A DNA stretch of 64,000 nucleotides, from the NCBI GenBank assembly GCA_963745035.1, contig CAVUVW010000013.1, positions 1,120,001 through 1,184,000 of the forward strand, in the 5' to 3' direction. A program made the position numbers and the translations under genes. Below the pieces are notes generated by a model. It saw only the letters and a program-made list of their open reading frames with translations. It had not been told where the DNA came from and did not search any database. Source of the DNA: an uncultured delta proteobacterium. Lineage in GTDB: Bacteria > Desulfobacterota > Binatia > UBA9968. This document shows positions 148 through 43,984 of this stretch, one piece after another (the stretch's first letter is position 1; every line of letters begins with the position of its first letter).

Positions 148-285
148 AAGGGTGCTAAGCCGGCTGATCTGCCTGTGGAGCAGAGGAAGACGTTTGAATT
201 TGTCGTTAATCTCAAAACCGCCAAAGGGATCGGGCTCGACATTCCGCAGTCGGTGCTGTTCCGAGCCGACAGGGTGATCAAATGA
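148..285 (+). pseudogene. Orphan 3' tail of an ABC_sub_bind (DUF534-type) solute-binding protein gene
   Basis: Manual translation [45 protein letters not shown] matches the C-terminus of the intact paralog at 2544-3536; the upstream frame is unrelated and has no start. Confidence 0.85.
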
Positions 286-287
286 AG

Positions 288-363
288 CCAGGACTGAATT
301 GAATTCTCCATCAACGCAATCTCGCGTGGCATCACATTGAAGCGTCGTTCAGTTCAATCCTAG
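288..363 (+). repeat. ~75-bp hairpin element, copy 1
   Basis: CCA-GGACTGAATTGAA-TTCTCCATCAA...TTGAAGCGTCG-TTCAGTTCAATCC-TAG; imperfect 13-bp inverted arms. Confidence 0.9.
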
Positions 364-470
364 GTTGAAATTAGCCTTTTTCCCCTCGACGAATCCGGTT
401 TTTGTTCTGCCGTAAACAACCCTTTTTTAAGTCTCCGTGTTCGTGATAAATAAACTCACGAGGTGGGCTG

Positions 471-549
471 GTCAATCTGAAGACGGCCAAGCAGCTCGCC
501 TAACTATTCCGCCCAATGTCCTGGCCAGAGCGGATGGGTGATGAAGTGA
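471..549 (+). pseudogene. Orphan, frameshifted 3' tail of an ABC_sub_bind SBP gene
   Basis: Reads VNLKTAKQL/LTIPPNVLARAD/VMK* across two 1-nt shifts. Confidence 0.75.
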
Positions 550-586
550 ACATAGCCGACATGTCGCAACATACAAAGACTACTCA

Positions 587-1533
587 TGTGTCCTGCGATA
601 TACGCTCTGCTTATTGAAACTGGCTTTCTCGCTAATGCCAGCAGCCGAAAGCGGTATTTAAGATCGGAATGCTCTGGAGGCGTCCGGACTCGGGTTATTC
701 CGTGGAGAGCTGCGTGAGCTTGGCTACGTTGAAGGGAAGAACATAATTTCCGAGTACCGACAGAGTGATGGAAAGCTCGACCGCGTTCCTGCCCTTGTTG
801 ATGAGCTGATTCGCCAGAAAGTTGACGTGCTCGTCGCTTCCTCGACACCCGGCGCCATGCTGCCAAGAACGCTACTTCTACGATCCCGATTGTTTTTTTA
901 ACTGTGCCCGATCCTGTCGGAGCTGGGCTGGTCGATAGTCTCGCACAACCAGGCGGAAACATTACGGGAGTCGCAAACATTACCCCCGATATGGCCGGCA
1001 AACGACTGGAGTTGCTAAAAGAAACTATTCCGAAGATTTCCCGTGTTGCAGTGCTTTGGGACCCACAAATCCCAGGCTCCGCCGAATCCTGGAAAGAAAG
1101 CCGCGTGCCGGCGCAGGAACTGGGTCTACTCCTTCATTCCATGGAAATAAGCAGCGCGGACAATCTCGATGCGAAGTTCGAAGAAACGGTTCAGGCGCGT
1201 AGCTCGGCGCTCATGCTAGCGGGTGGCACATTGGCTACCGCCAATCAAAAAACAATCGCGGATCTCGCCATAAAAAATCGTTTGCCAACGATTTCTACGC
1301 GCACAGATTTCGTGGAAGCGGCGTCTTAATGTCGTATGGCTCTGACTTAAAAGAACCTTACAAGCGCGTGGCATCCATCGTTGATAAGATCCTCAAGGGG
1401 ACGAAGCCCGTCGACATCCCCGTCGAACAACCAACAAAGTTTAAGATGTATATTAACCTCAAAACAGCAAAAGCAGATCGGCCTGACGATTCCGCCGAAT
1501 GTGCTGGCGCGGGCGGATAAGGTGATCAAGTAA
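587..1533 (+). pseudogene. ABC_sub_bind SBP, multiply frameshifted; start approximate
   Basis: Pieces QQPKAVFKIG, LRELGYVEGKN, PDPVGAGLVDSLAQPGGNITG, MSYG...VDKILKGTKPVDIPVEQPTKF and IGLTIPPNVLARADKVIK* occur in order across about five frameshifts. Confidence 0.85.
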
Positions 1534-1546
1534 CCACCCGGCGACG

Positions 1547-1620
1547 CTAGGATTGAACTGAATTCTCCTACAACCAAATCCTGTGGAATTTGTCCGTTGC
1601 GTCGTTGAGTTCAACCCTAC
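1547..1620 (+). repeat. ~75-bp hairpin element, copy 2
   Basis: CTA-GGATTGAACTGAA-TTCTCCTACAA...GCGTCG-TTGAGTTCAACCC-TAC. Confidence 0.88.
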
Positions 1621-1729
1621 CGGCTTTTTTGTGATTGTCTAGCCGAACTAAGCCGCCGATTGTTAGGGAGTATGCGGCCCCGCCGGTCAGCTTTTGGCGG
1701 AAGCCGTTGAGCTGGGTGGCTGATGGATA

Positions 1730-1830
1730 TTGCAACCGATTTGGATTTTATTGTCGGAGCCACCGCTGGAGATAAGCGGACCGGCATTTGTCTCCGCTTA
1801 CGGTGGCTCAATTAAAGATACAAGTTAGGA
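1730..1830 (+). mobile_element. Degenerate attC-like site
   Basis: Imperfect palindrome GCAAC..TTGGATTTTATTG..GAGCCACCG / CGGTGGCTC-AATTAAAGATACAA-GTTAGGA; ends 8 nt before the next ATG, as in gene cassettes; left core is non-canonical. Confidence 0.4.
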
Positions 1831-1838
1831 CACAAAAT

Positions 1839-2264
1839 ATGCGAAATCTGATTACCCTCTCTCTTATCGTCTTGGTTACGGCTTGTGGGACTATGAGTGC
1901 AGACCGCAGTGGGACTGCGAAACAACAGGTGGCTGAAGCAACTGCCGCCTGGGTTGCGGCGTATAATAGCCGTGATCCGGGACGTATCACCTCGTTGTAT
2001 GACCCCGAAGCTGTGTTCTGGGGAACGTCAGCAAAAACAATTTCTGCAAGCCCAGTTGCGATTGCCGATTATTTTAAGGATGCCGGCAAGACCCCCGACG
2101 CGAGAGTTACTCTCGGCGAACAGCATATTCGCGTCTATGGCGATGTGGCCATAAACACGGGCTACTACACATTCAGGAGTCCTGCTCGTTTCACCGTTGT
2201 CTACCGAAATCGGAACGGAAAATGGTTGATCGTTGATCACCACTCATCACGAGTTCCGGGGTAG
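1839..2264 (+). CDS. NTF2-like SgcJ/EcaC/DUF4440-family lipoprotein, cassette-like gene
   Basis: Lipobox LVTAC; WVAAYNSRD...LYDPEAVFWGT...ARFTVVY...WLIVDHHSS signature; bracketed by GTTAGG and an attC-like site. Confidence 0.85.
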   Translation: MRNLITLSLIVLVTACGTMSADRSGTAKQQVAEATAAWVAAYNSRDPGRITSLYDPEAVFWGTSAKTISASPVAIADYFKDAGKTPDARVTLGEQHIRVYGDVAINTGYYTFRSPARFTVVYRNRNGKWLIVDHHSSRVPG

Positions 2265-2281
2265 TTAGTTGTTATTCTCGA

Positions 2282-2370
2282 GTCCAATTCTTCAGGTGGA
2301 GTGTACGGGCCGCAAGCGTTCTGCAACAGTCGGTGTCTGTGCTGGCCCGCCGCTCACCAAGACGTTAGTG
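2282..2370 (+). mobile_element. Integron attC-like site
   Basis: GTCCAAT (R'' with one mismatch)-5 nt-GGTGGAGTG...GGGCC/GGCCC...CGCTCACC-AAGAC-GTTAGTG (R'-like); extrahelical base in the L box; 17 nt after a stop codon. Confidence 0.7.
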
Positions 2371-2446
2371 CCAGGATTGAACTGAATTCTCCATCAAACC
2401 AATCTCCGTGATCATCAAATTGAAGCGTCGTTCAGTTCAATCTCAG
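2371..2446 (+). repeat. ~75-bp hairpin element, copy 3; abuts the attC
   Basis: CCA-GGATTGAACTGAA-TTCTCCATCAA...TTGAAGCGTCG-TTCAGTTCAATCT-CAG. Confidence 0.92.
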
Positions 2447-2543
2447 GCTAAATTTGGTCTTTTTCACTGGCCGATTCACTGTTGCCTTCGGTCGCAAATC
2501 TTAGTTTCCCTCTGATACAGCCCGCGTGATAAACATGTGGGCA

Positions 2544-3536
2544 ATGAGGAAAGCTGGTGTCTTATCTGTCTTGGTAATGCTTGCTGTTGCAGTCGTAGCC
2601 GAGGCGCAGCAGCCAACAAAAATCCCGCGGATCGGATACGTCTCAGGCACGGGCACTGCGACTAATCAAGGTCCGTACGTCGAAGCTCTGCGCCAAGGGC
2701 TGCGCGAAGTAGGTCACGTCGAGGGGAAAACCTTCGTGATCGAGTATCGCGCCGCGGAGGGACAGATAGAGCGCGTACCAAGCCTCGTCGAGGAACTAGT
2801 ACAACAAAAGGTCGATCTAATGATTGCTCCGGTTCCAAACGCCATCCGAGCCGCTAAACAGGCAACCAAGACGATTCCTATTGTTATGGTGGCCAGCATT
2901 GATCCGGTCGCAACCGGAATGATCGATAGCTTGGCACGTCCTGGTGGAAATTTGACTGGCATCTCCACCCTAAACCAAGACCTAAACGGCAAACGGCTAG
3001 AATTGCTCAAGGAGGTGGTCCCGCAGCTATCACGCGTGGGAATTCTTCTGGATAGGGGAAGTTCGAGCACGAGTTCTACGGTAGTGAATTTGAAGCAGTA
3101 TGAGGACGCGGCCAGGGTTCTCAAGATAGAAATCCAATCGCTTGAAGTCCACGGACCGAAGCCCGACCTGGAACCTATGTTTAATACAGCCGCCAAGTTG
3201 CGCATTGGGGGGCTGGTCACAATCACTAATGCCAACCTCTTTATCCAACAAAAGCGGCTCGCCGAACTCGCGATAAAACATAGGCTGCCTTCAATGTTCC
3301 AGGGAAGCACCTGGGTCGATTCAGGCGGCCTTATGTCCTATGCAACCGACGAACTTGGCGCGTTTCGCCGAGCCGCGACTTATGTGGATAAAATACTCAA
3401 GGGCACAAAGCCTGCTGATTTGCCGGTCGAGCAGACAACAAAGTTTGAATTCGTAGTCAACCTCAAAACCGCTAAACAAATCGGTCTCAACATTCCGGAG
3501 TCGGTGCTATTCCGAGCTGACAGAGTAGTCAAATGA
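2544..3536 (+). CDS. ABC transporter substrate-binding protein (ABC_sub_bind/DUF534 type), intact
   Basis: Signal peptide ending AEA-QQP; IPIVM, SLARPGGNLTG, GGLMSY and [23 protein letters not shown] motifs; alternative starts at 2526 and 2535. Confidence 0.93.
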   Translation: MRKAGVLSVLVMLAVAVVAEAQQPTKIPRIGYVSGTGTATNQGPYVEALRQGLREVGHVEGKTFVIEYRAAEGQIERVPSLVEELVQQKVDLMIAPVPNAIRAAKQATKTIPIVMVASIDPVATGMIDSLARPGGNLTGISTLNQDLNGKRLELLKEVVPQLSRVGILLDRGSSSTSSTVVNLKQYEDAARVLKIEIQSLEVHGPKPDLEPMFNTAAKLRIGGLVTITNANLFIQQKRLAELAIKHRLPSMFQGSTWVDSGGLMSYATDELGAFRRAATYVDKILKGTKPADLPVEQTTKFEFVVNLKTAKQIGLNIPESVLFRADRVVK

Positions 3537-3590
3537 TACTGTTCCGTTGCCGTTGCCAGTGGTCAGCGGTTACCAAGAGCGTCTTCGCCA

Positions 3591-3674
3591 TTCGTTAATC
3601 TTAAAACCGCCAAGCAAATCGGCCTGAAAATTCCGGCTAATGTGCTGGCGAGGGCGAATAAGGTGATCAAATAA
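3591..3674 (+). pseudogene. Orphan 3' tail of an ABC_sub_bind SBP gene
   Basis: FVNLKTAKQIGLKIPANVLARANKVIK* in frame, no start. Confidence 0.85.
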
Positions 3675-3686
3675 CGAGGCGGCGTC

Positions 3687-3724
3687 CCAGGATTGAACTG
3701 TATTCTCCATCAATTCAATTTCAG
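3687..3724 (+). repeat. Hairpin element, copy 4, internally deleted
   Basis: CCA-GGATTGAACTGTA-TTCTCCATCAA joined directly to TTCAATTTCAG. Confidence 0.75.
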
Positions 3725-3809
3725 GTCGATGACCCTGGAGTGCTACGGTCCGTGCTGCCCGGCCCTTTTCCTGCGCGGGCGGACAGAGTGATAAAATAAG
3801 GAGCGCATT

Positions 3810-4472
3810 ATGATCGGTGCCAAGGCTCTGTTAGAAGGGATTCGGCAAGATTTGCAGCCCGTCACGGAACAGCTTCTGGGGCATCCTTACGTGAAGGCTC
3901 TGGAGGAAGGGCAGATTGAGCGGGAGAAGCTCCGTCTTTTTGCCGGCGAGCAGTACAGCATCATAGCGAGTGATCTCAAAAGCGTCGCTTATTTGCTTAG
4001 CCGCTTCGGTAGCGCTCCGAGCCGTGATTTCTTTCTCGGAATCCTGCAGGGTGAAAGAGCTGCCTGGGATGGCTTGCTAACGTTCGTCAATGCCCTCGGC
4101 CTAAGCGAAGCTCAACTGAGCAAGCACGAGCCAGCGGCTGGCGCTCATGCCTACACCTGCTACATGGCGTGGCTTGCGCTCTATGCCTCTGACGCCGAGA
4201 TTGCTGCTGCCTACCTGGTCAATTTTCCAGCGTGGGGTCAGAACTGTGGCCGCCTGAGCCGGATTCTGAAAGAGCGTTTCGGTATGGGCGAGAAGGAAGT
4301 CGCTTTTTTTGATCTCTTCGCCTCTCCTCCAACTACATTTGAAGCCGACGCTCTGAAAGTTATTCAGCAGGGACTCGATCGAGGCATCGAGCCGAGCCTG
4401 ATCCAACGGGCGGCTCGGTTACTCCAGGCCTACGAGCTCATGTATTGGGATACCCTCTACGGGGCGTCTTAG
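3810..4472 (+). CDS. TenA/THI-4/PqqC-fold (heme-oxygenase-like) protein
   Basis: HPYVKALEEG, EQYSIIASD and RLLQAYELMYWD motifs; AAGGAG RBS. Confidence 0.8.
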   Translation: MIGAKALLEGIRQDLQPVTEQLLGHPYVKALEEGQIEREKLRLFAGEQYSIIASDLKSVAYLLSRFGSAPSRDFFLGILQGERAAWDGLLTFVNALGLSEAQLSKHEPAAGAHAYTCYMAWLALYASDAEIAAAYLVNFPAWGQNCGRLSRILKERFGMGEKEVAFFDLFASPPTTFEADALKVIQQGLDRGIEPSLIQRAARLLQAYELMYWDTLYGAS

Positions 4473-4474
4473 CC

Positions 4475-4506
4475 GTGCTGGCAGGGCGGATAAAGTGATC
4501 GAGTGA
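4475..4506 (+). pseudogene. Very short SBP 3' tail remnant
   Basis: GTGCTGGCAGGGCGGATAAAGTGATCGAGTGA reads VLA/RADKVIE* with one shift; starts 2 nt after the TenA stop. Confidence 0.65.
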
Positions 4507-4529
4507 GCGAAGAAAACCAAGCGGCAATG

Positions 4530-4600
4530 CTAGGATTGAACTGAATTGTCCATCAATCTTAAACCACATCAAATTGAAGCGTCGTTCAGTTCAATGCTGG
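4530..4600 (+). repeat. ~75-bp hairpin element, copy 5
   Basis: CTA-GGATTGAACTGAA-TTGTCCATCAA...TTGAAGCGTCG-TTCAGTTCAATGC-TGG. Confidence 0.9.
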
Positions 4601-4902
4601 AATATAAATTCAGATCAACCCGGACATTTTGCAGACAGCTTAGGAAAAACTAGCGCCACGAAGCTAGAATAGACGGCCTGCTTAAAAGGCAATCAGAGAG
4701 TACTAACAAGTACCACATCATACTAAAACTCCTCGCATGCTTTCCCGCACGGAAATACTACATCGTACAGAGCCGTTTTGGCGGCAGTTCACGCACAAAA
4801 GGCGCACAAAACACGGCAGCGGTTTGGCCAAAATCATGTCCTTGACAGACTTTAGCGATCTAGGCGATATTTTGCGCGGTTAAACCCGCAAGGTCATCCT
4901 CG

Positions 4903-5355
4903 ATGGATCAATCAGTCGTCAGCGCGTTATCAGCGATCTTGGGTTCACTGGTTGGCGGTTCGGCCACCATTGCAACTGCTTGGATTACACAGAAGACGCA
5001 AAGCAGACGCGAGTTAGTCGGCGCCGAGATTCGAAAGCGAGAACTACTCTATACTGAGTTTATTGACGAGTGCTCGAAGCTGGCCATTGACGCTTTGGAC
5101 CACACGCTCGATGACACCACGAAGGTTTTTCGCGTTTACGCACTTTCAAGTCGCATCAGGCTCACATCGTCCGACATGGTGGTTGCGGCCGCAGATCAGA
5201 CCGTAAAGCATATTCTCACGAGCTATTTCAGGCCTAACATGACGAGGGAAGAGATTCGAGATCTGGCCCTTTCCGGAACTGCTGAAAAAGATCCGCTTAC
5301 GCAATTCAGCGAAGCCTGTCGAAACGAGCTTAAAGCATTGCAATCTGGCTTCTGA
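4903..5355 (+). CDS. Hypothetical protein with N-terminal transmembrane helix
   Basis: 150-aa ORF; hydrophobic N-terminus followed by a helical charged domain. Confidence 0.75.
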   Translation: MDQSVVSALSAILGSLVGGSATIATAWITQKTQSRRELVGAEIRKRELLYTEFIDECSKLAIDALDHTLDDTTKVFRVYALSSRIRLTSSDMVVAAADQTVKHILTSYFRPNMTREEIRDLALSGTAEKDPLTQFSEACRNELKALQSGF

Positions 5356-5511
5356 CGAAGCAGCTCGTCCGTCCACAAGGAAGCCTGTTACGGCAATTCG
5401 TATAATTCAAATCCTTATCAGAATCCCCGCCGCCGATAAATAATTTGCCTGAAACGAGGCGATCAATCACCCGTAGGCAGTGCCACTAAAAACATGGTGC
5501 GGAGGCCGCAA

Positions 5512-5631
5512 ATGAAAACTACTTTGAAATTATTCATTTTGGTCGCCAGCATTTTTGTGATGACGACTATGCCTAACCAGTGCGGGAACCGGACCGCCCA
5601 AGTCGCAGCTGAGAGTTTCTTGGCGGAGTGA
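5512..5631 (+). pseudogene. Truncated cassette-like ORF: signal peptide fused to an attC left half
   Basis: GGAGG RBS; MKTTLKLFILVASIFVMTT runs straight into GCCTAAC (perfect R'' at 5571) and a CCGCCCAAG/CTTGGCGG stem. Confidence 0.45.
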
Positions 5632-5638
5632 GGGTGGT

Positions 5639-5708
5639 GGCTAACCCTTCCATCGAGCAGACGGGCTGCCGGTGCGCGTCTCCAGCCGCCGCTCATCAAA
5701 CGTTAGTG
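5639..5708 (+). mobile_element. Integron attC-like site (70 bp)
   Basis: GGCTAAC-CCTTC-CATCGAGC-AGAC-GGGCTG...CAGCC-GCC-GCTCAT-CAAAC-GTTAGTG: R''/L''/L'/R' layout with an extrahelical base. Confidence 0.8.
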
Positions 5709-5782
5709 TTAGAATTGAACTGAATTCTCCTACAAAATTAATCCAGAGAATCTGCCTGAGGCATCGTTTATTTCAAACGTAC
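5709..5782 (+). repeat. Hairpin element, copy 6; abuts the attC, right arm overlaps the cupin stop
   Basis: TTA-GAATTGAACTGAA-TTCTCCTACAA...GGCATCG-TTTATTTCAAACG-TAC. Confidence 0.75.
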
Positions 5783-6897: not shown

Positions 6898-7917
6898 TCA
6901 CTTCAATTTCGCCAAGCCGTTATTCTGCGGCTCGTAGTCGCGGTCTTCCTTGCGCCGGCGCGCAACCGAGTCGTCGACGGTTTCGTTGCCGAAACGGGTG
7001 GCGCCCACCGCGCGGTAGTGCCGGGCATTTTTTCTGGCGTACACCCCGCCTAAAAAGCGCGCGTAGGAATCGGTGGATTCGCCGAGATAATTTTGCGCCC
7101 CGACCGTCACCGGATCGAGCGCCAAGCCGAGCGCCGCGGCCTTGTCCTGCATCCAGCGGAGCGGCATGTCGGAAAGTCTTCGGTCTGTGTAGCCGCCGCC
7201 GACGTCGCAATGGGCGCCCATGAACCAGCGCTGCTCCAGAGCTTGCGCCGGCGCCGACGGCTCCCACAGGCAAACGTCGTAGTCCCGGCGATGCTCGTCG
7301 ACGGCGACGGCGTGGCAGGCGTTTTCGACGAGACCGCACAATTTGGTGTCATGAAACTCGTAGTATTTCATGTTGGCGTCGGCGAGCACGTCCAAGGGAA
7401 TGCCCAGCGCGCCGACCGTGTCCCACACGCCGATAAATTTGATTTTGATCTCGCGGGAAAACGCCCGGCGAAACAACTTCGCCGTCGTGGAATCCGCTTT
7501 GTCGTCGCGCGTCCGGTAGATTCCATAGGCGATCGCCACCCGCAGCGCCAGATGTTTGGGATAGATCAAGCCGCAGTTGCGAATCATGCCGACCAGGCTG
7601 CGCGCCGTGTAGGCGCCGCGGCTGAATCCGAGAATATACACTTCGTCCCCGTCCTCGTACTGGTTGGCGAGATACTCGTAGCCTTGAACGATGTTGCGCT
7701 CCAGGCCGGCGCCGATGGCGCCGCCGATATAGCGATCGTACCAGTGGGCGCCGACGCCTTCGTCGTACCACTTCGCTTGTCGGACGCCGTTCTTGTCGCC
7801 ATCCCGAACCGCCTCGTAGAATCGGCAGACGTTGGTCTCGACCCGCCGGTCCGCCGCCAAGGCTTCATCCGCCGGCTTGTTCCAGGTGCCGTCAAAACAG
7901 ATCACGATGCGCTTCAT
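6898..7917 (-). CDS. DUF2235 alpha/beta-hydrolase-like protein
   Basis: ICFDGTWN, GFSRGAYTARSL, GVWDTVGALG and GAHCDVGGG motifs. Confidence 0.93.
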   Translation of the reverse strand: MKRIVICFDGTWNKPADEALAADRRVETNVCRFYEAVRDGDKNGVRQAKWYDEGVGAHWYDRYIGGAIGAGLERNIVQGYEYLANQYEDGDEVYILGFSRGAYTARSLVGMIRNCGLIYPKHLALRVAIAYGIYRTRDDKADSTTAKLFRRAFSREIKIKFIGVWDTVGALGIPLDVLADANMKYYEFHDTKLCGLVENACHAVAVDEHRRDYDVCLWEPSAPAQALEQRWFMGAHCDVGGGYTDRRLSDMPLRWMQDKAAALGLALDPVTVGAQNYLGESTDSYARFLGGVYARKNARHYRAVGATRFGNETVDDSVARRRKEDRDYEPQNNGLAKLK

Positions 7918-8062: not shown

Positions 8063-8656
8063 TTACGTGACGGTCGGATCGAATGGCTTAGGCGAGCGCG
8101 CGCGCCAAGCCTGTTGAAAGCGATCGAGCAATTCGGCGGGATCGTCCTCGACGATCATCAAAGCACGATGCTTGGGTTTGATGAAATCTTTGGCGACGGC
8201 CTGATCGAGGAAGGCGATCAACGAATCGTAATAGCCCGCTACGTTCAAGAGCCCGCACGGCTTTTCGTGCAGCCCGAGCTGCGCCCAGCTCAGCACCTCG
8301 AAGAATTCTTCCATCGTGCCGATGCCGCCGGGCATGGCGATGAAGCCATCCGAGAGCTCGGCCATCAAGGCTTTGCGCTCGTGCATCGAGCCCACCACGC
8401 GCAGCTCCGTGAGCCCGCCATGCGCCACTTCCTTACTCACCAGCGAGTTCGGGATGACGCCGACGACCGTACCGTGAAGGTCGAGAACCGTGTTGGCGAC
8501 GACGTTCATCAAACCGACGTTGCCGCCGCCGTAGACGAGACCGTAGCCGCGCGCGACGAGCTCGCGACCAAGCTGTTGCGCCGCCAAAGCGTATTCGGGC
8601 GATGCGCCCTGGCGCGATCCGGTAAAGACGCAAACTTTTCTTATGCCGTCGTTCAT
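8063..8656 (-). CDS. LOG-family (TIGR00730) nucleotide phosphoribohydrolase
   Basis: LVYGGGNVGLM, MHERKA and PGGIGTMEE motifs. Confidence 0.95.
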   Translation of the reverse strand: MNDGIRKVCVFTGSRQGASPEYALAAQQLGRELVARGYGLVYGGGNVGLMNVVANTVLDLHGTVVGVIPNSLVSKEVAHGGLTELRVVGSMHERKALMAELSDGFIAMPGGIGTMEEFFEVLSWAQLGLHEKPCGLLNVAGYYDSLIAFLDQAVAKDFIKPKHRALMIVEDDPAELLDRFQQAWRARSPKPFDPTVT

Positions 8657-37649: not shown

Positions 37650-38354
37650 TCAGTGAATCTGCTCCATATAATAACCCAGCGCGCCGCGATAGGCGCGATC
37701 GATCGCCATGGAGTCGCGCGCGCCAAGCAGCACGAGATCGCGATCTTCAGGCGTCTTCACGTAGCGCTCGAACATCTCGGAAATATTTTCCGAGTGTTCG
37801 GTGTCGGCGACCACGTGAACGTCGAGGGAAATCATTCTTTTCAAGTTGATGCCGAGCTCATTTTCGAACTTCTTGCCGACCCGGTACGACATGCCGCCGC
37901 CTTTGACGATCTTGCCGTTGTTGCGCCGCTCGAGCATGTGCGAAGAAGTATAAGCCGTCAGCCAGTGACTGCGCAGCGCGACGTGGTGCCAGGCGTAGAA
38001 ACAGGCGCGCACCATCGCGGGCACCTCGGCTTTCTCGAAATCCTCCGGCGTTAACCCGATGACTTCACCCTGCTTGACCGTCAGCGCGTAATGGTCCATG
38101 CCCGCGCGCGGATCGTTGACCAGCTCGTCGCTCTCGTGCTCCCAAATCACCCGCTTCACCGCCAGCGGCGCGCCGCCTTGCACGTAGCCCCAGCAATCGC
38201 GCCGGTTGCTGGTGTAGAGCGCGTTTTGCAGGACGTAAAACCTTCCCCGTTCCAACGTCAGCGGCACCGCGAGAAAATTCTTGAACTCGACGCTCTCGAA
38301 TTGATCGTTGACCATCTGGTCCAGTGTTTTGAGCAGGTCTCCCACAAGATCCAT
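37650..38354 (-). CDS. Heme-oxygenase-like diiron protein (CADD/PqqC fold)
   Basis: HESDE..DH, LE and HVVADTEH ligand pattern; all-helical. Confidence 0.82.
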   Translation of the reverse strand: MDLVGDLLKTLDQMVNDQFESVEFKNFLAVPLTLERGRFYVLQNALYTSNRRDCWGYVQGGAPLAVKRVIWEHESDELVNDPRAGMDHYALTVKQGEVIGLTPEDFEKAEVPAMVRACFYAWHHVALRSHWLTAYTSSHMLERRNNGKIVKGGGMSYRVGKKFENELGINLKRMISLDVHVVADTEHSENISEMFERYVKTPEDRDLVLLGARDSMAIDRAYRGALGYYMEQIH

Positions 38355-38378
38355 GCTGATCTCCCAGGTCGTTTGGCT

Positions 38379-39092
38379 TTACGGCAGAGCCGCGAGCATG
38401 TCGGCAAGATGGCCGCGATAAACTCGGTCGATCAGCAGGCTCTCGCGCGCGCCGCGCACCAGCGCCCGGCGCGCCGCTTCGGTGGTCGCGTGCCGGCGCG
38501 CCACCTGCATCAATAAATGTGCGTGCTCGACGTCCATCGTCACGTGCTCGGCGTTGTTGATCTGCTTTTTTACCGGGATGCCGAGATCGCGCTCGAGCAT
38601 TCGGCTGATCCGCAAAGACAGCGAACCGCCTTGGATCAGCTCGCTCGAGTTGCGCATTTCGAGGATCGCCGAGCCGGCGAGCGCCTCGAGCCAGGGACGC
38701 TGCGCCAAGCGAATCCAGGCGCTGAAACAGACTTCACCGCCTTCCAGACGCGCCGCGCGCTCGAACGCTTCGGCGCTCAGCCCGAACACAGCCCCTTCCT
38801 GGACGGCCAAAGTGATATGATCGACCTTGCCCTGGGCCTTCCGGCCGATCAGCTCGTCCTCCTCGTGGTGCCAGATCGATTGCTTGACGTCGAGCGGCGC
38901 CGAGCCCTGCACGTAGCCCCAGCAATCGCGCCGGTTTTCCACGTAGTAGGCCATCTGAATCGAATACTGCTGCGCTCTTTTCTGCGAAAACTTCGTGCCG
39001 AGCAGGCGTTGAAACGGCGCCGAGGCGAATTGCTCGTTGACCAATCTGACCAACTCCGCCCAGGTCGTTTCGATACTGTCCGTGATTCCCAT
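38379..39092 (-). CDS. Heme-oxygenase-like diiron protein (CADD/PqqC fold), paralog
   Basis: HEEDE..DH, LE and HVTMDVEH; shares NRRDCWGYVQG with its neighbour. Confidence 0.82.
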   Translation of the reverse strand: MGITDSIETTWAELVRLVNEQFASAPFQRLLGTKFSQKRAQQYSIQMAYYVENRRDCWGYVQGSAPLDVKQSIWHHEEDELIGRKAQGKVDHITLAVQEGAVFGLSAEAFERAARLEGGEVCFSAWIRLAQRPWLEALAGSAILEMRNSSELIQGGSLSLRISRMLERDLGIPVKKQINNAEHVTMDVEHAHLLMQVARRHATTEAARRALVRGARESLLIDRVYRGHLADMLAALP

Positions 39093-39222
39093 CAAACTTC
39101 CTCGACCGCGCTTGCCGCTTCTTAACACAAGCAAGTTTGCCGTGTCCAACCAAGGGGCGCGTTCATTTTCTTTTCGCCGCTGCCGGAAGCTTGCCCCAGC
39201 GGGCGGGGAAACGCGCATGTTC

Positions 39223-40173
39223 TTAACTCGCTTCATCGAGCGAAATAAACAAATCGGCAAGGGTCATCGGCTTGGCGAACAGGCCCTGCTCGCCGGCGTA
39301 GCGCACCAATGCATTGAGCGCCTTTTCGTTGCCCTTGATGCCGAATCTCCACGGATCCGGTCCCAGCACGGCCCGCTGTTCTTCCCATACCTGGCGATTC
39401 CACGCGAAATTGGAATACGTCGCGTCCGCGTCGTCGCGCAACGCCAGATTCTTCGCCTCCACGCAAGCGTCGAACATCTCTTGAGCCGCCGAAGGATGTT
39501 TTTCCAAATATGACGAATGAAACGTAATCGCATGGCTGGTCGGGAAAACACCGCTCCGCCGGAACGATTCCTGCTCGACTGACTTCGAGTCGGGCAACAG
39601 CCGGCGCCAGCCTCTTTCCTCCGGAAAATCCGGCACGATGATCGCGTCGAATTCGCCCTGGAGCATGCGCTTCGTAAGCGAGTGCTCGCTCGGTACGACA
39701 TCGAGACGCGTCCCGACGGGCAGCGATAATTCCACTTTGTTCGGCCGCGGCATCACCCAGTGAATATCCTGCGCCTTTACGCCGTACTCATCGCTGAGAA
39801 TCCCGCGCACCCAGAGGCCGCAGGTATTGAGCCAGCCCGGGATGCCGACTTTCTTGCCCTTCAACTGCGCCGGCTCTTTGAGCGGCGAGTTTTCCGGCAC
39901 GAAAATGTAGGAATGGCGAAACTTGCGATTAGGAAAAGCCGGGATAGCCATATACGGCTTGCCGCGGCTTTTGAGGGCGCAGTAATTCGCCAGCGAGAAT
40001 TCACCCGTATCGTATTTTCCCGCGAGAAATTGCTCGTGGCCCTCGCCGTCGCTCTCGAAAGGCTCAGCCCTGAGCGTGAAACTTTTCAGCTTCACCCGCC
40101 CGTCGCACATGGGCTTCGCGCGTAGATGATAACCAGCCGCCAGCGATAACTCCGGTCTTTGACTGTCGCTCAT
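39223..40173 (-). CDS. 4,5-dihydroxyphthalate decarboxylase-like (PhtD, SBP fold) protein
   Basis: EFSLA, AIPAFPNRKFRHS, WVRGILSDEYG and DPWRFGI..N motifs. Confidence 0.85.
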   Translation of the reverse strand: MSDSQRPELSLAAGYHLRAKPMCDGRVKLKSFTLRAEPFESDGEGHEQFLAGKYDTGEFSLANYCALKSRGKPYMAIPAFPNRKFRHSYIFVPENSPLKEPAQLKGKKVGIPGWLNTCGLWVRGILSDEYGVKAQDIHWVMPRPNKVELSLPVGTRLDVVPSEHSLTKRMLQGEFDAIIVPDFPEERGWRRLLPDSKSVEQESFRRSGVFPTSHAITFHSSYLEKHPSAAQEMFDACVEAKNLALRDDADATYSNFAWNRQVWEEQRAVLGPDPWRFGIKGNEKALNALVRYAGEQGLFAKPMTLADLFISLDEAS

Positions 40174-43207: not shown

Positions 43208-43984
43208 TCATCCTCGCTCCGCCGCTTCCATCGCCGCGCGCAGCATGACGCCGTGCAGATCCACCGAAGTCATGGCGCAATACTCCAGGCCGTAGGTGGG
43301 CCGTTCGTCCGCCATGCCCTTCTCGAGCAACCGCTGCAGCGCCATGCGATTGAAGCTCGCATGGCCCATCACGCCTTCTTCATGCTCGGCCAAATCGGCT
43401 TCGACGTGGGTCGCGAAATACGTCGCCTTGTCGCGATCGAAGCCATAATGCGTCGTCAACGCTTTATAGCAGGCGGCCGACCAGTGACCGATCTGCTCCT
43501 CGGTCGTCACGGCCGAGTACCATTCCGCGGCGGTGCCTTCGTAGACGATGCCGCGCATGAAATCGATCTTGCCGCGGAATTCTGACAGCATCGGGGTGGT
43601 AAAAACTTCCTCCTCGGTTAATCCGAACGCCTGGGCGGTTTGCAGCATGACGAGAAAATGGCCCGGCGGCTTCGGATGAATGAACTCGTCGGCGATCTTC
43701 TCGCCGATAGGCCCCATGAGATCGCGGTTTACTTTTAGAAAAGTGATGTTCTTGTGGTAGGTGCAGGCGGTGAGGGTATTGATCTCGATCGTATAAGCGC
43801 CCCAGTTGCGAAAGAATGTTTGCAGCGTCTTGAGCGGCAGCTTGCCGGCCATGAGCTGCTGCATGAACGGCTTCTGGTTGACCTTTAATTCCCAGCGCTC
43901 GCGCACCATGGAGTAGAGTTGGTCGACGATCGCCTTCGCCTCGTTCGGTGAGTATTTTTCCCCCAGTTGAACCTGTAGCGCCAT
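43208..43984 (-). CDS. Heme-oxygenase-like diiron protein (CADD-like)
   Basis: PFMQQLMAG, DE..PGH, TEEQ and YGF..YFATHVEAD..H motifs. Confidence 0.82.
   Translation of the reverse strand: MALQVQLGEKYSPNEAKAIVDQLYSMVRERWELKVNQKPFMQQLMAGKLPLKTLQTFFRNWGAYTIEINTLTACTYHKNITFLKVNRDLMGPIGEKIADEFIHPKPPGHFLVMLQTAQAFGLTEEEVFTTPMLSEFRGKIDFMRGIVYEGTAAEWYSAVTTEEQIGHWSAACYKALTTHYGFDRDKATYFATHVEADLAEHEEGVMGHASFNRMALQRLLEKGMADERPTYGLEYCAMTSVDLHGVMLRAAMEAAERG

What the first reader, a model, noticed from the sequence alone, without database searches (positions are those of the whole stretch)
288..5782. Six co-oriented copies of a ~75-bp hairpin with a conserved asymmetric internal loop
Copies start at 288, 1547, 2371, 3687 (deleted), 4530 and 5709. 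Consensus is YYA-GGATTGAACTGAA-TTCTCCW-WCAA-(variable 17-25 nt)-TTGA-AGCGTCG-TTCAGTTCAATCC-TAG. The outer stem carries AAC/GTT, the unpaired TTCTCC/GCGTCG region is sequence-conserved, and the apex varies. This stem / unpaired spacer / stem / variable-tip layout parallels attC but is unrelated in sequence. All copies share one orientation, and I saw none in the other 58 kb. Alternatives are a CTAG- or TA-targeting MITE, a structured RNA, or an operator.
Basis: partly seen in the sequence, partly recalled or inferred. Interest (0 to 1): 0.75.

Follow-up and report, generated by a model that had tools for sequence, protein, structure and literature searches.

The report
Hairpin repeats punctuating a gene-cassette array
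Six copies of a 75-base palindromic DNA repeat separate single genes in a foreign-looking 5.8-kb stretch that also carries classic integron recombination sites, so the repeat is probably an unusual, lineage-specific version of the site at which bacteria shuffle gene cassettes.

Summary
There are exactly six co-oriented copies (288, 1547, 2371, 3687 truncated, 4530, 5709 degenerate) and none elsewhere in the 64 kb (covariance-model scan).

The region 1-5.8 kb is about 51% GC against about 62% downstream. It consists of + strand single-gene units, each followed by a hairpin. The same repeat forms co-oriented arrays in 26 loci of uncultured soil MAGs, mostly Binatia.

These arrays also hold canonical integron attC sites. 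Window 5639-5708 is one, and 2290-2370 is a degenerate one. Such sites are enriched on the array strand (12, against 4 opposite and 2.8 in shuffles). The context is therefore an integron-type cassette array with no integrase in the DNA held (CALIN-like).

The hairpin has attC architecture: two 13-6-13 "simple sites" around a variable centre, 71-78 nt. Its core sequences are not canonical. It shows sequence conservation, not covariation. It often lies 12 nt after a canonical attC. No chimeras with canonical attCs were found.

My best reading is a lineage-specific attC-like recombination or junction site (about 0.4). The rivals are a selfish palindromic repeat that colonises cassette junctions, or an RNA-level element. 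An IS91-family element inserts into the hairpin's GTTC. No Rfam match, no TSD, no RAYT link.

The parts
288..363 (+). hairpin copy 1 (full; 5' arm variant GGACTGAATTGAA)
   Evidence: CM 78.1 bits; sequence; follows the ABC_sub_bind C-terminal remnant ending at 285
1547..1620 (+). hairpin copy 2 (full; 3' arm variant TTGAGTTCAACCC)
   Evidence: CM 71.4 bits; 14 nt after the stop of the ABC_sub_bind pseudogene
2371..2446 (+). hairpin copy 3 (full, consensus arms)
   Evidence: CM 77.8 bits; ssDNA fold -9.6 kcal/mol, z -2.56; directly preceded by ...GACGTTAGTG-CCA
3687..3724 (+). hairpin copy 4, short form (A1-TTCTCC joined to the 3' arm; internal deletion)
   Evidence: CM 29.8 bits; same short form at L013:10001, L009, L002, L006, L019
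4530..4600 (+). hairpin copy 5 (full; TTGTCC variant)
   Evidence: CM 67.2 bits; fold -11.3 kcal/mol, z -3.39; homologous unit in L006
5709..5782 (+). hairpin copy 6 (good 5' half, decayed 3' arm); last element before the GC-rich chromosome
   Evidence: CM 39.3 bits; GC step at about 5.8-6 kb
5639..5708 (+). canonical attC-like site (GGCTAAC ... CATCAAAC-GTTAGTG), ending 3 nt before copy 6
   Evidence: own attC-geometry scan, 13 L-box pairs with 3 bulges; bottom-strand fold shows R box, internal loops and L stem, though the energy is no better than shuffles (z 0.66)
2290..2370 (+). attC-like palindrome with canonical 3' end (..CACCAAGAC-GTTAGTG) but degenerate R''
   Evidence: shares its 3' end with 5639-5708; fold -16.8 kcal/mol, z -1.73; not called by my scanner
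640..1532 (+). ABC_sub_bind (PF04392) pseudogene, frame-shifted
   Evidence: Pfam on two ORF pieces, 1.3e-16 and 1.3e-06
1839..2264 (+). DUF4440/SnoaL-like cassette ORF
   Evidence: Pfam PF14534 5.7e-14
2526..3536 (+). intact ABC_sub_bind gene
   Evidence: Pfam PF04392 1.7e-43
3590..3674 (+). orphan ABC_sub_bind C-terminal fragment (..NLKTAKQIGL..ANKVIK*) before copy 4
   Evidence: direct-repeat families D3 and D5; sequence
3810..4472 (+). TenA/THI-4-like ORF, flanked by short ABC C-terminal remnants (3773-3799 and 4472-4506)
   Evidence: Pfam PF03070 6.9e-21; D5 repeats; same unit in L006 (90.6% over 1033 nt) and L011
4903..5355 (+). hypothetical 150-aa ORF (no Pfam hit); a 45-aa ORF follows at 5494-5631

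Best explanation
The hairpin is the junction repeat of an integron-type gene-cassette array. It is a DNA site built like an attC (59-base element). It has a left simple site (GGATTGAACTGAA-TTCTCC-wTCAAnnCAATCy), a variable centre, and a right simple site (rATCrAAyTGAA-GCGTCG-TTCAGTTCAATCC). Folded as single-stranded DNA it would present a 13-16-bp outer stem (R-box position), a 6x6-nt unpaired spacer, a short variable inner stem and a variable tip. I propose that a tyrosine recombinase encoded elsewhere in the genome recognises the conserved arms and spacers and exchanges the flanking gene units there, and that general recombination between the conserved blocks adds to the shuffling. Shown: the anatomy, the array context, the co-orientation, the presence of canonical attC sites in the same arrays, and mosaic homology breakpoints at the edges of the hairpin's conserved blocks. 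Inferred: that it is a recombination site at all, which enzyme acts on it, and the crossover point (by analogy GCGTCG|TTCAGT). The lone 'half' sites seen in relatives, and window copy 3687, are explained as slippage deletions between the element's internal direct repeats.
For: Array context: region 1-5.8 kb is 47-57% GC per 500 nt (mostly about 51%) against 58-65% downstream. All annotated units are on the + strand and each is followed by a hairpin at 0.8-1.3 kb spacing. The content is cassette-like: DUF4440/SnoaL, TenA, hypotheticals, ABC_sub_bind. Relatives: 26 loci hold co-oriented arrays, and 121 of 123 half-sites lie on the locus's majority strand. Canonical attC architecture is enriched on the array strand: 38 against 19 on the opposite strand, with a mean of 17.8 and maximum of 22 in 20 shuffles; at the stricter threshold 12 against 4 against 2.8, maximum 7. 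The examples include textbook sites such as L001:11156-11213. Architecture: 71-78 nt; two inverted-pair simple sites with 6-nt centres (68% of cells paired against 21-41% when slid); long-hairpin fold 74.5% paired, outer helix 84%. This matches the published attC plan (passages of PMC3053210). The arms and spacers are conserved in sequence while the centre varies, as expected of a protein-recognised site. Breakpoints: window c4530 and L006 are identical up to ..CCwTCAA and then differ. L014 and L009 are identical through a canonical attC plus the whole hairpin and diverge right after ..CAATC. ABC_sub_bind and TenA units have no other palindrome at their 3' ends.
Against: No integron integrase was found in anything I hold. 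Of 289 locus ORFs and 67 window ORFs scanned with Pfam, the only tyrosine recombinases (5 ORFs) lie inside IS91-family elements, and the three of them scanned with NCBIfam score 156-164 bits against a cut-off of 265 for integron integrase. The cores are not canonical. With ATTGAAC/GTTCAAT as the R box, the 'spacer' TGAA/TTCA is paired. With ACTGAAT/GTTCAGT, R'' has AAT instead of AAC. My scanner does not call the hairpins. Seventeen of 69 5' halves sit directly after a canonical attC (12-nt offset in 10 of 18 distinct cases). A pair of functional attCs only 66 nt apart should be unstable. There are no chimeras between canonical attC left parts and the hairpin's 3' arm, apart from an IS end. 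The breakpoints are not at one fixed point, so homologous recombination could explain them. Covariation is no better than shuffles (61 of 500 for the long hairpin). Extra-helical bases were not demonstrated. Many separate arrays per genome (10 loci from one MAG) is unlike a single integron platform.
Confidence: 0.4

Rival explanations
1. It is a selfish, non-autonomous palindromic repeat (REPIN/MITE/PATE-like) that colonises cassette junctions. It would be copied as a discrete unit of about 70 nt, perhaps by a single-strand (HUH) transposase or by gene conversion, and inserted at a fixed offset after stem-loops such as attC sites. Uniform orientation would then reflect strand-specific insertion (replication direction), not array polarity.
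For: Hairpin-only identity with both flanks different: L003:778 against a second L011 copy, 97% over 70 nt; L013:8115 against L026:19453, 92% over 76 nt. There is a fixed 12-nt offset from the G of a canonical R' in 10 of 18 cases. There are many copies per genome on many contigs. Decayed and deleted forms are frequent: 38 lone 5' and 24 lone 3' halves against 31 full copies. No recombinase is adjacent. HUH transposases occur in the same MAGs: IS91 TnpA and a RAYT.
Against: There is no target-site duplication; the flanking YYRG motifs are conserved parts of the element. No empty site was found among 123 flanks searched against all held DNA; the 2 hits were uninformative. The element is confined to arrays: 0 copies in the window's other 58 kb. 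The RAYT in L026 is not flanked by it. The resemblance of its arms to the IS91 end palindrome is at chance level: edit distance 3 or better in 151 of 300 shuffles. It does not explain why ABC_sub_bind and TenA units carry it exactly where other cassettes carry an attC.
Confidence: 0.25
2. It acts at the RNA level as a 3'-UTR or intercistronic stem-loop (a transcript stabiliser, processing site or weak terminator). It would have been duplicated along with the expanding ABC_sub_bind paralogues and retained between cassettes.
For: It always lies downstream of, and in the same orientation as, the preceding ORF. About 52% of 5' halves (36 of 69) follow an ABC_sub_bind stop codon with a conserved 16-26-nt linker. 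A conserved leader follows many 3' halves before the next ABC gene.
Against: No Rfam family matches. The simple scan finds no intrinsic-terminator or promoter pattern at any copy. Covariation is no better than shuffles, and the supposedly unpaired hexamers are among the best-conserved positions. The element also follows canonical attCs and non-ABC genes. The arms are near-identical while the adjoining coding DNA is only 65-75% identical, which points to recognition of sequence, not structure.
Confidence: 0.12
3. It is a pair of Xer/dif-like double-stranded core sites (13-6-13, one good arm and one poor arm each, in inverted orientation). These would bound 'modules' that a Xer-type recombinase moves, as proposed for pdif modules in Acinetobacter plasmids (recalled, not read here).
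For: Each half has the arm-6 nt-arm layout of tyrosine-recombinase core sites, with one conserved and one degenerate arm. The two halves are inverted relative to each other. The halves can travel with different neighbours: window against L006. Xer-like recombinases are encoded in the same MAGs inside IS91 elements.
Against: L and R sites do not alternate strictly along the arrays; R..R and L..L occur. Most lone halves are explained by slippage deletions. The two centres (TTCTCC, GCGTCG) share no homology, so L x R exchange is not expected. No chromosomal Xer gene or dif site was examined. The comparison with pdif rests on recall.
Confidence: 0.08
4. It is an operator: a palindromic binding site for a transcription factor that controls the ABC_sub_bind genes.
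For: It is a sequence-conserved palindrome placed upstream of a conserved leader in about a third of cases (19 of 54 3' halves precede an ABC gene).
Against: Most copies do not precede ABC genes. No regulator gene is linked. It also stands at array ends between convergent genes (copy 5709). 76 nt with a variable centre is atypical for an operator.
Confidence: 0.04

Closest known systems
Integron attC sites (59-base elements), especially the homogeneous attC families of sedentary chromosomal integrons, and CALINs (clusters of attC sites lacking an integrase)
   Same: Imperfect palindrome of 71-78 nt at the 3' side of single co-oriented ORFs. Two simple sites around a variable centre. Unpaired spacers in the folded form. 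Conserved ends and a variable middle. Low-GC array of small, diverse and often unannotated genes. No integrase nearby, as in CALINs (definition read in PMC4889954; attC plan in PMC3053210).
   Different: The core sequences next to the spacers are not RYYYAAC/GTTRRRY. The outer stem is 13-16 bp, not 7. The spacer hexamers are sequence-conserved. Extra-helical bases were not shown. The element often stands 12 nt after a canonical attC. No chimeras with canonical attCs. There are many arrays per genome. IntegronFinder's model could not be run.
REP / REPIN elements and their RAYT transposases
   Same: A doublet of short palindromes in inverted orientation that can fold into one long hairpin; intergenic; many copies; decayed singlets occur.
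   Different: Not dispersed: 0 copies in 58 kb of ordinary chromosome. Strictly co-oriented in arrays. The one RAYT found (L026, NCBIfam 87.5 bits) is not flanked by the element. The features of REPINs are recalled, not read here.
attC-targeting parasites (IS1111-attC insertion sequences, group IIC-attC introns)
   Same: An IS91-family element (TnpA NF033538, 430.6 bits) sits at one precise position of the hairpin in 3 of 4 copies. This echoes mobile elements that home to cassette recombination sites (titles and abstracts seen in the search listing).
   Different: It belongs to a different IS family and mechanism: rolling-circle, HUH. Its target is explained by the family's GTTC-type tetranucleotide rule (passages of PMC13181058), not by recognition of attC as such.
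MITEs / Correia-like elements
   Same: Short, non-coding, with terminal inverted repeats.
   Different: No target-site duplication, one orientation only, no empty sites found, confined to arrays.

Membership tests
integron attC site | Imperfect palindrome of 57-141 bp at the 3' end of a (usually single-ORF) cassette, in co-oriented arrays | tested here: met
   71-78 nt; six + strand copies, each after a + strand ORF at 0.8-1.3 kb spacing; size range from PMC3053210
integron attC site | Two simple sites (1L-2L and 2R-1R), each a pair of inversely oriented binding sites, separated by a variable segment with an inverted repeat | tested here: met
   A1-TTCTCC-A'* and A2*-GCGTCG-A'; 68.3% of cells paired against 21-41% when slid; variable centre; inner helix 60% paired
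integron attC site | Core sites RYYYAAC (R'') and GTTRRRY (R') directly next to the 5-6-nt unpaired spacers | tested here: not met
   ATTGAAC/GTTCAAT are 4 paired bp away from the loop. The cores next to the loop are ACTGAAT/GTTCAGT (AAT, not AAC). My geometry scanner calls canonical sites in the same arrays but not the hairpins.
integron attC site | Extra-helical bases on the folded bottom strand that set strand choice | tested here: inconclusive
   The element is directional (CM 67-78 bits on + against 26-32 on -) and the two spacers differ, but no conserved bulged bases were identified in the folds.
integron attC site | Crossover at G|TT of R', visible as chimeric junctions between sites | tested here: not met
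   Of the 30 3' arms (out of 78) not preceded by GCGTCG, none is a fusion of a canonical attC to the arm, apart from an IS91 end. Homology breakpoints fall at the left edge, the middle and the right edge of the hairpin.
integron attC site | Match to the IntegronFinder attC covariance model | not testable with these tools
   The model is not in Rfam (0 Rfam hits), and I did not bring in its alignment because sequences from outside the session were not to be typed.
complete integron | Integron integrase (IntI, with the extra domain near patch III) next to the array | tested here: not met
   No IntI among 289 locus ORFs or 67 window ORFs. The IS-borne recombinases score 156-164 bits against a cut-off of 265 on TIGR02249, with the match split in two. 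The window starts inside the array, so its upstream side is unseen.
CALIN | At least two attC sites close together and no intI nearby (definition in PMC4889954) | tested here: inconclusive
   By my own scanner the window has one strong canonical site (5639-5708) and one degenerate site (2290-2370). The loci have several per array (for example L011, L007). It meets the definition only if the hairpins or the degenerate site count as attC; IntegronFinder was not run.
REP / REPIN | Dispersed through intergenic regions genome-wide; cognate RAYT flanked by the repeat | tested here: not met
   0 copies in 58 kb of the window; the RAYT at L026:17419-18102 has no copy in its flanks.
MITE | Terminal inverted repeats plus target-site duplication; both orientations; empty sites | tested here: not met
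   TIR-like arms are present, but there is no TSD, 121 of 123 half-sites share the local strand, and no empty site was found.
Rfam RNA families | Score at or above a family's gathering threshold | tested here: not met
   0 matches in 64 kb, both strands.

The most novel reading that the evidence does not exclude
The hairpin may be the recombination site of a cassette system distinct from classical integrons. A different tyrosine recombinase, not IntI, would recognise a 13-6-13 / 13-6-13 composite site. It would build many dispersed arrays per genome in Binatia, mobilise ABC-type substrate-binding genes among others, and sit next to captured integron cassettes at a fixed 12-nt offset, making it a second, orthogonal gene-cassette platform.
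Probability: 0.12. Interest if true: 0.85.

Novelty: new variant of a known kind. Interest (0 to 1): 0.55.

Why it matters
Integron cassette arrays are the best-understood bacterial device for stockpiling and shuffling genes. Their recombination sites are defined mainly from Proteobacteria. Here an uncultured soil lineage (Binatia-like MAGs) carries many arrays without a nearby integrase. In these arrays a homogeneous site with attC architecture but non-canonical cores alternates with, and abuts, canonical attC sites. If the repeat is a working recombination site, it widens the sequence definition of attC, and tools tuned to RYYYAAC/GTTRRRY may miss such arrays. It also points to a recombinase with a different specificity. 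If instead it is a selfish repeat that homes to cassette junctions, it is a new kind of integron parasite. Either way it explains why these MAG contigs break at such arrays, and it gives a simple marker, the 24-nt motif, for finding them. Searches of the held paper library for Binatia plus integron found nothing.

Tried and rejected
1. Known RNA family: Rfam gathering scan of the whole window, 0 hits.

2. Structured RNA by covariation. Two candidate folds were counted on 29 copies. Neither exceeds the shuffles convincingly: long hairpin score reached by 61 of 500 shuffles, two sub-hairpins by 7 of 500, and both controls are known to be lenient.

3. MITE with TSD. The flanks are conserved motifs, not duplications, and the empty-site search gave only two uninformative hits, an internal repeat in L005 and an IS end in L026.

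4. REP/RAYT. The RAYT in L026 is not flanked by the element.

5. The recombinase next to the hairpins as the integron integrase. It lies inside an IS91-family element and is Xer-like, below the IntI cut-off. The element's junctions fit IS91 rules: no duplication, and GTTC, ATTC, ATTC or GTTA next to the right end.

6. Hairpin arms as mimics or derivatives of the IS91 end palindrome. The similarity is at chance level and is absent in the L011 copy.

7. A simple 3'-UTR element of ABC_sub_bind genes. Only 27 of 69 5' halves (tblastn) or 36 of 69 (DNA motif) follow such a gene.

8. Terminator or promoter: no hit at any copy.

9. Annotated plasmids: no match.

10. My first attC scanner was too strict and missed a textbook site. 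It was relaxed and given controls.

11. Cross-phylum spread. Hits in bins labelled Acidobacteriota, Verrucomicrobiia and Actinomycetes are short contigs or share flanks with Binatia-type bins (L016/L023), so I do not claim transfer between phyla.

Full report
OBSERVATION. The 13-base core occurs 14 times (both arms, up to 2 mismatches) against 1.23 expected, and 0 of 100 shuffles reach that number. A covariance model built from 29 distinct full copies was run over all 64 kb with filters off. It finds 288-363, 1547-1620, 2371-2446 and 4530-4600 at 67-78 bits, 5709-5782 at 39 bits and 3687-3724 at 30 bits, all on the + strand. Nothing else has E below 5. The reverse strand of the same sites scores only 26-32 bits, so the element has a direction. 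As single-stranded DNA the copies fold modestly, at -8.0 to -11.3 kcal/mol with z -1.2 to -3.4.

CONTEXT IN THE WINDOW. The first 5.8 kb are about 51% GC and the rest about 62%. The units between hairpins are single + strand ORFs:
- a frame-shifted ABC_sub_bind (PF04392) gene;
- a DUF4440/SnoaL-like gene;
- an intact ABC_sub_bind gene;
- a TenA-like gene;
- two unannotated ORFs.
Short orphan copies of the ABC_sub_bind C-terminal coding end (..ADKVIK*) lie directly before several hairpins. The other 58 kb hold ordinary metabolic and transport genes and no recombinase or transposase. Rfam has no match anywhere in the window.

RELATIVES. A degenerate 24-letter motif that 5 of the 6 window copies satisfy hits 26 loci in species-representative genomes. 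Most are MAGs titled Candidatus Binatia or 'uncultured delta proteobacterium', and 10 loci come from one bin. A few short contigs come from bins labelled Acidobacteriota, Pyrinomonadaceae, Verrucomicrobiia, Actinomycetes or Syntrophobacteraceae. L016 and L023, from differently labelled bins, share the same flanks, so I make no claim of spread between phyla. Many hits lie at contig ends.

Allowing up to 3 mismatches, the loci plus the window hold 31 full hairpins, 38 lone 5' halves and 24 lone 3' halves. They are arranged in arrays, and 121 of 123 half-sites lie on the majority strand of their locus. L009/L025 overlap on one contig, and L003/L011 share near-identical segments, so some sites are counted twice.

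ANATOMY. The 5' half is itself a 13-6-13 palindrome, GGATTGAACTGAA-TTCTCC-wTCAAnnCAATCy, whose second arm is a degenerate copy of the 3' arm. The 3' half is rATCrAAyTGAA-GCGTCG-TTCAGTTCAATCC. On the 29-copy alignment:
- the two-sub-hairpin fold pairs 68.3% of cells;
- the single long hairpin pairs 74.5% (outer helix 84%, inner helix 60%).
Both fall to 16-43% when the partners are slid. Covariation does not clearly beat shuffles. What is conserved is primary sequence (arms and both hexamers), while the centre varies. That suits a protein-recognised DNA site better than an RNA.

The layout equals the published plan of attC sites: 57-141 bp, two simple sites of inversely oriented binding sites, and a variable segment between them (passages of PMC3053210).

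The lone halves are explained simply. A1 and A2* are direct repeats, as are A'* and A'. Deletion between them leaves A1-GCGTCG-A' (for example L017) or A1-TTCTCC-A'. The latter form is seen in window copy 3687 and at L013:10001, L009, L002, L006 and L019.

CANONICAL attC SITES IN THE SAME ARRAYS. Of 69 5' halves, 36 follow an ABC_sub_bind end with a conserved linker. At least 17 follow a palindrome ending in ..AAC-GTTRRRY. Some of these are textbook attCs, for example L001:11156-11213, GCCTAAC-CTTTC-GTTCcAGCGgACTGCC-TTCG-GGCAGTCGCTGAAC-TCAAAC-GTTAACA.

I wrote a scanner for attC geometry: RYYYAAC, a 4-8-nt spacer, an L stem with bulges, a spacer, then GTT.
- At the loose threshold it finds 38 sites on the array strand, 19 on the opposite strand, and a mean of 17.8 (maximum 22) in 20 locally shuffled sets.
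- At the stricter threshold it finds 12, 4 and 2.8 (maximum 7).
Two of the 12 strict hits are artefacts: one spans a hairpin (L018) and one is an IS end (L019).

In the window, 5639-5708 is such a site. 2290-2370 shares its 3' end but has a degenerate R''. Both stop 3 nt before a hairpin. Across the loci the distance from the G of R' to ATTGAAC is 12 nt in 10 of 18 distinct cases. Canonical sites without a following hairpin also exist (L012:10910, L011:6098, L001:14018, in array-strand coordinates). So the arrays are integron-type cassette arrays. With no integrase in the DNA I hold, they resemble CALINs (definition read in PMC4889954).

WHERE DO UNITS BREAK? The evidence comes from three comparisons.
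- Window 4440-4640 and L006 are identical through TenA, the linker and the 5' simple site. They differ in the variable centre and again downstream.
- L014 and L009 are identical through a canonical attC and the whole hairpin, and diverge just after ..CAATC.
- Two pairs share only the hairpin of about 70 nt, with both flanks different (97% and 92% identity).
Breakpoints therefore sit at the edges of the conserved blocks, not at one nucleotide. No fusion of a canonical attC to the hairpin's 3' arm was found, and no empty site.

A PARASITE OF THE HAIRPIN. In L009 (twice; one copy is also in L025) and in L019, an element of about 2.5 kb interrupts the hairpin exactly between a hexamer and the 3' arm. 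It encodes a Xer-like tyrosine recombinase and an IS91-family transposase (NF033538, 430.6 bits). It sits on the top strand in L019 and on the bottom strand in L009, and the displaced arm is intact at its far end. A fourth copy (L011/L003) lies elsewhere. The tetranucleotide next to its right end is GTTC, ATTC, ATTC or GTTA. This fits the IS91-family rule of a GTTC/CTTG-type target next to oriIS, with no duplication (passages of PMC13181058). The recombinase scores 156-164 bits on the integron-integrase model against a cut-off of 265. I read this as an ordinary IS91 insertion that exploits the hairpin's GTTC, not as the hairpin's own machinery. The resemblance between its end palindrome and the hairpin arms is at chance level.

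INTERPRETATION. My best reading (0.4) is that the repeat is a lineage-specific site of attC architecture at which gene units of these arrays are joined and exchanged, acted on by a recombinase encoded elsewhere. The weak points are:
- the non-canonical cores;
- the tandem arrangement with canonical attCs;
- the absence of chimeras;
- the absence of an integrase.
The rivals are a selfish palindromic repeat that homes to cassette junctions (0.25), an RNA-level element (0.12), Xer/dif-like module sites (0.08) and an operator (0.04).

LIMITS.
- The window begins inside the array, so its upstream side is unseen.
- IntegronFinder's model could not be run.
- Features of REPINs, pdif modules and VCR-type attCs are recalled, not read here.
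- Paper-library searches: Binatia plus integron gave 0 papers. Searches supplied the papers cited, of which I read passages only.

Noticed in passing
L009:11177-13704 (+), L019 about 1690-4160 (-), L025 about 1770-4295 (+), L011 about 2565-5085 (-): A 2.4-2.5-kb IS91-family element carries a Xer-like tyrosine recombinase upstream of the Y2 transposase. Three of its four copies are inserted at one precise position of the hairpin, on either strand.
   Followed up: yes
window 148-285, 481-547, 3590-3674, 3773-3799, 4472-4506: There are orphan fragments of the ABC_sub_bind C-terminal coding end. Some begin at the same point (CCGTGCTG..) and flank the TenA-like gene on both sides. The same TenA unit recurs in L006 and L011. 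How these duplications arise is unexplained.
   Followed up: partly
L026:17419-18102 (-): This ORF is a REP-associated tyrosine transposase (RAYT; NCBIfam 87.5 bits, cut-off 80) in a MAG rich in the hairpin. Its flanks lack the hairpin, and its own REPs were not identified.
   Followed up: partly
L026:10072-11800: A DDE_5 insertion sequence abuts the 3' end of a full hairpin. A second copy of its end lies at L026:3177-3382.
   Followed up: no
window 6898-7917 (-): This ORF has a T6SS Tle1-like phospholipase catalytic domain (PF09994, 7.1e-81), just outside the array. A LOG-family (lysine-decarboxylase-like) gene follows at 8063-8656.
   Followed up: no
window 37653-39260 and 43211-43984 (-): The ordinary chromosome carries several Haem_oxygenas_2 / TenA-like paralogues next to NMT1-like binding proteins. 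They belong to the same broad family as the TenA-like cassette gene at 3810-4472.
   Followed up: no
L016 and L023; L003 and L011: Contigs from bins with different taxonomic labels (a 'delta proteobacterium' bin and an Actinomycetes bin) share identical flanks around a hairpin half. Two contigs of one bin share segments of about 870 nt at 97-98% identity. This suggests mis-binning or very recent duplication or transfer.
   Followed up: no
downstream of many hairpins, e.g. window 364-400, 2447-2480; L013, L017, L019: A conserved leader (..AGGCTAAAAATCTGGTTTTTCCCACTCGACGAATC..) lies between the hairpin and the next ABC_sub_bind gene. It may be that gene's promoter or 5' UTR. The simple promoter scan did not flag it.
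   Followed up: partly
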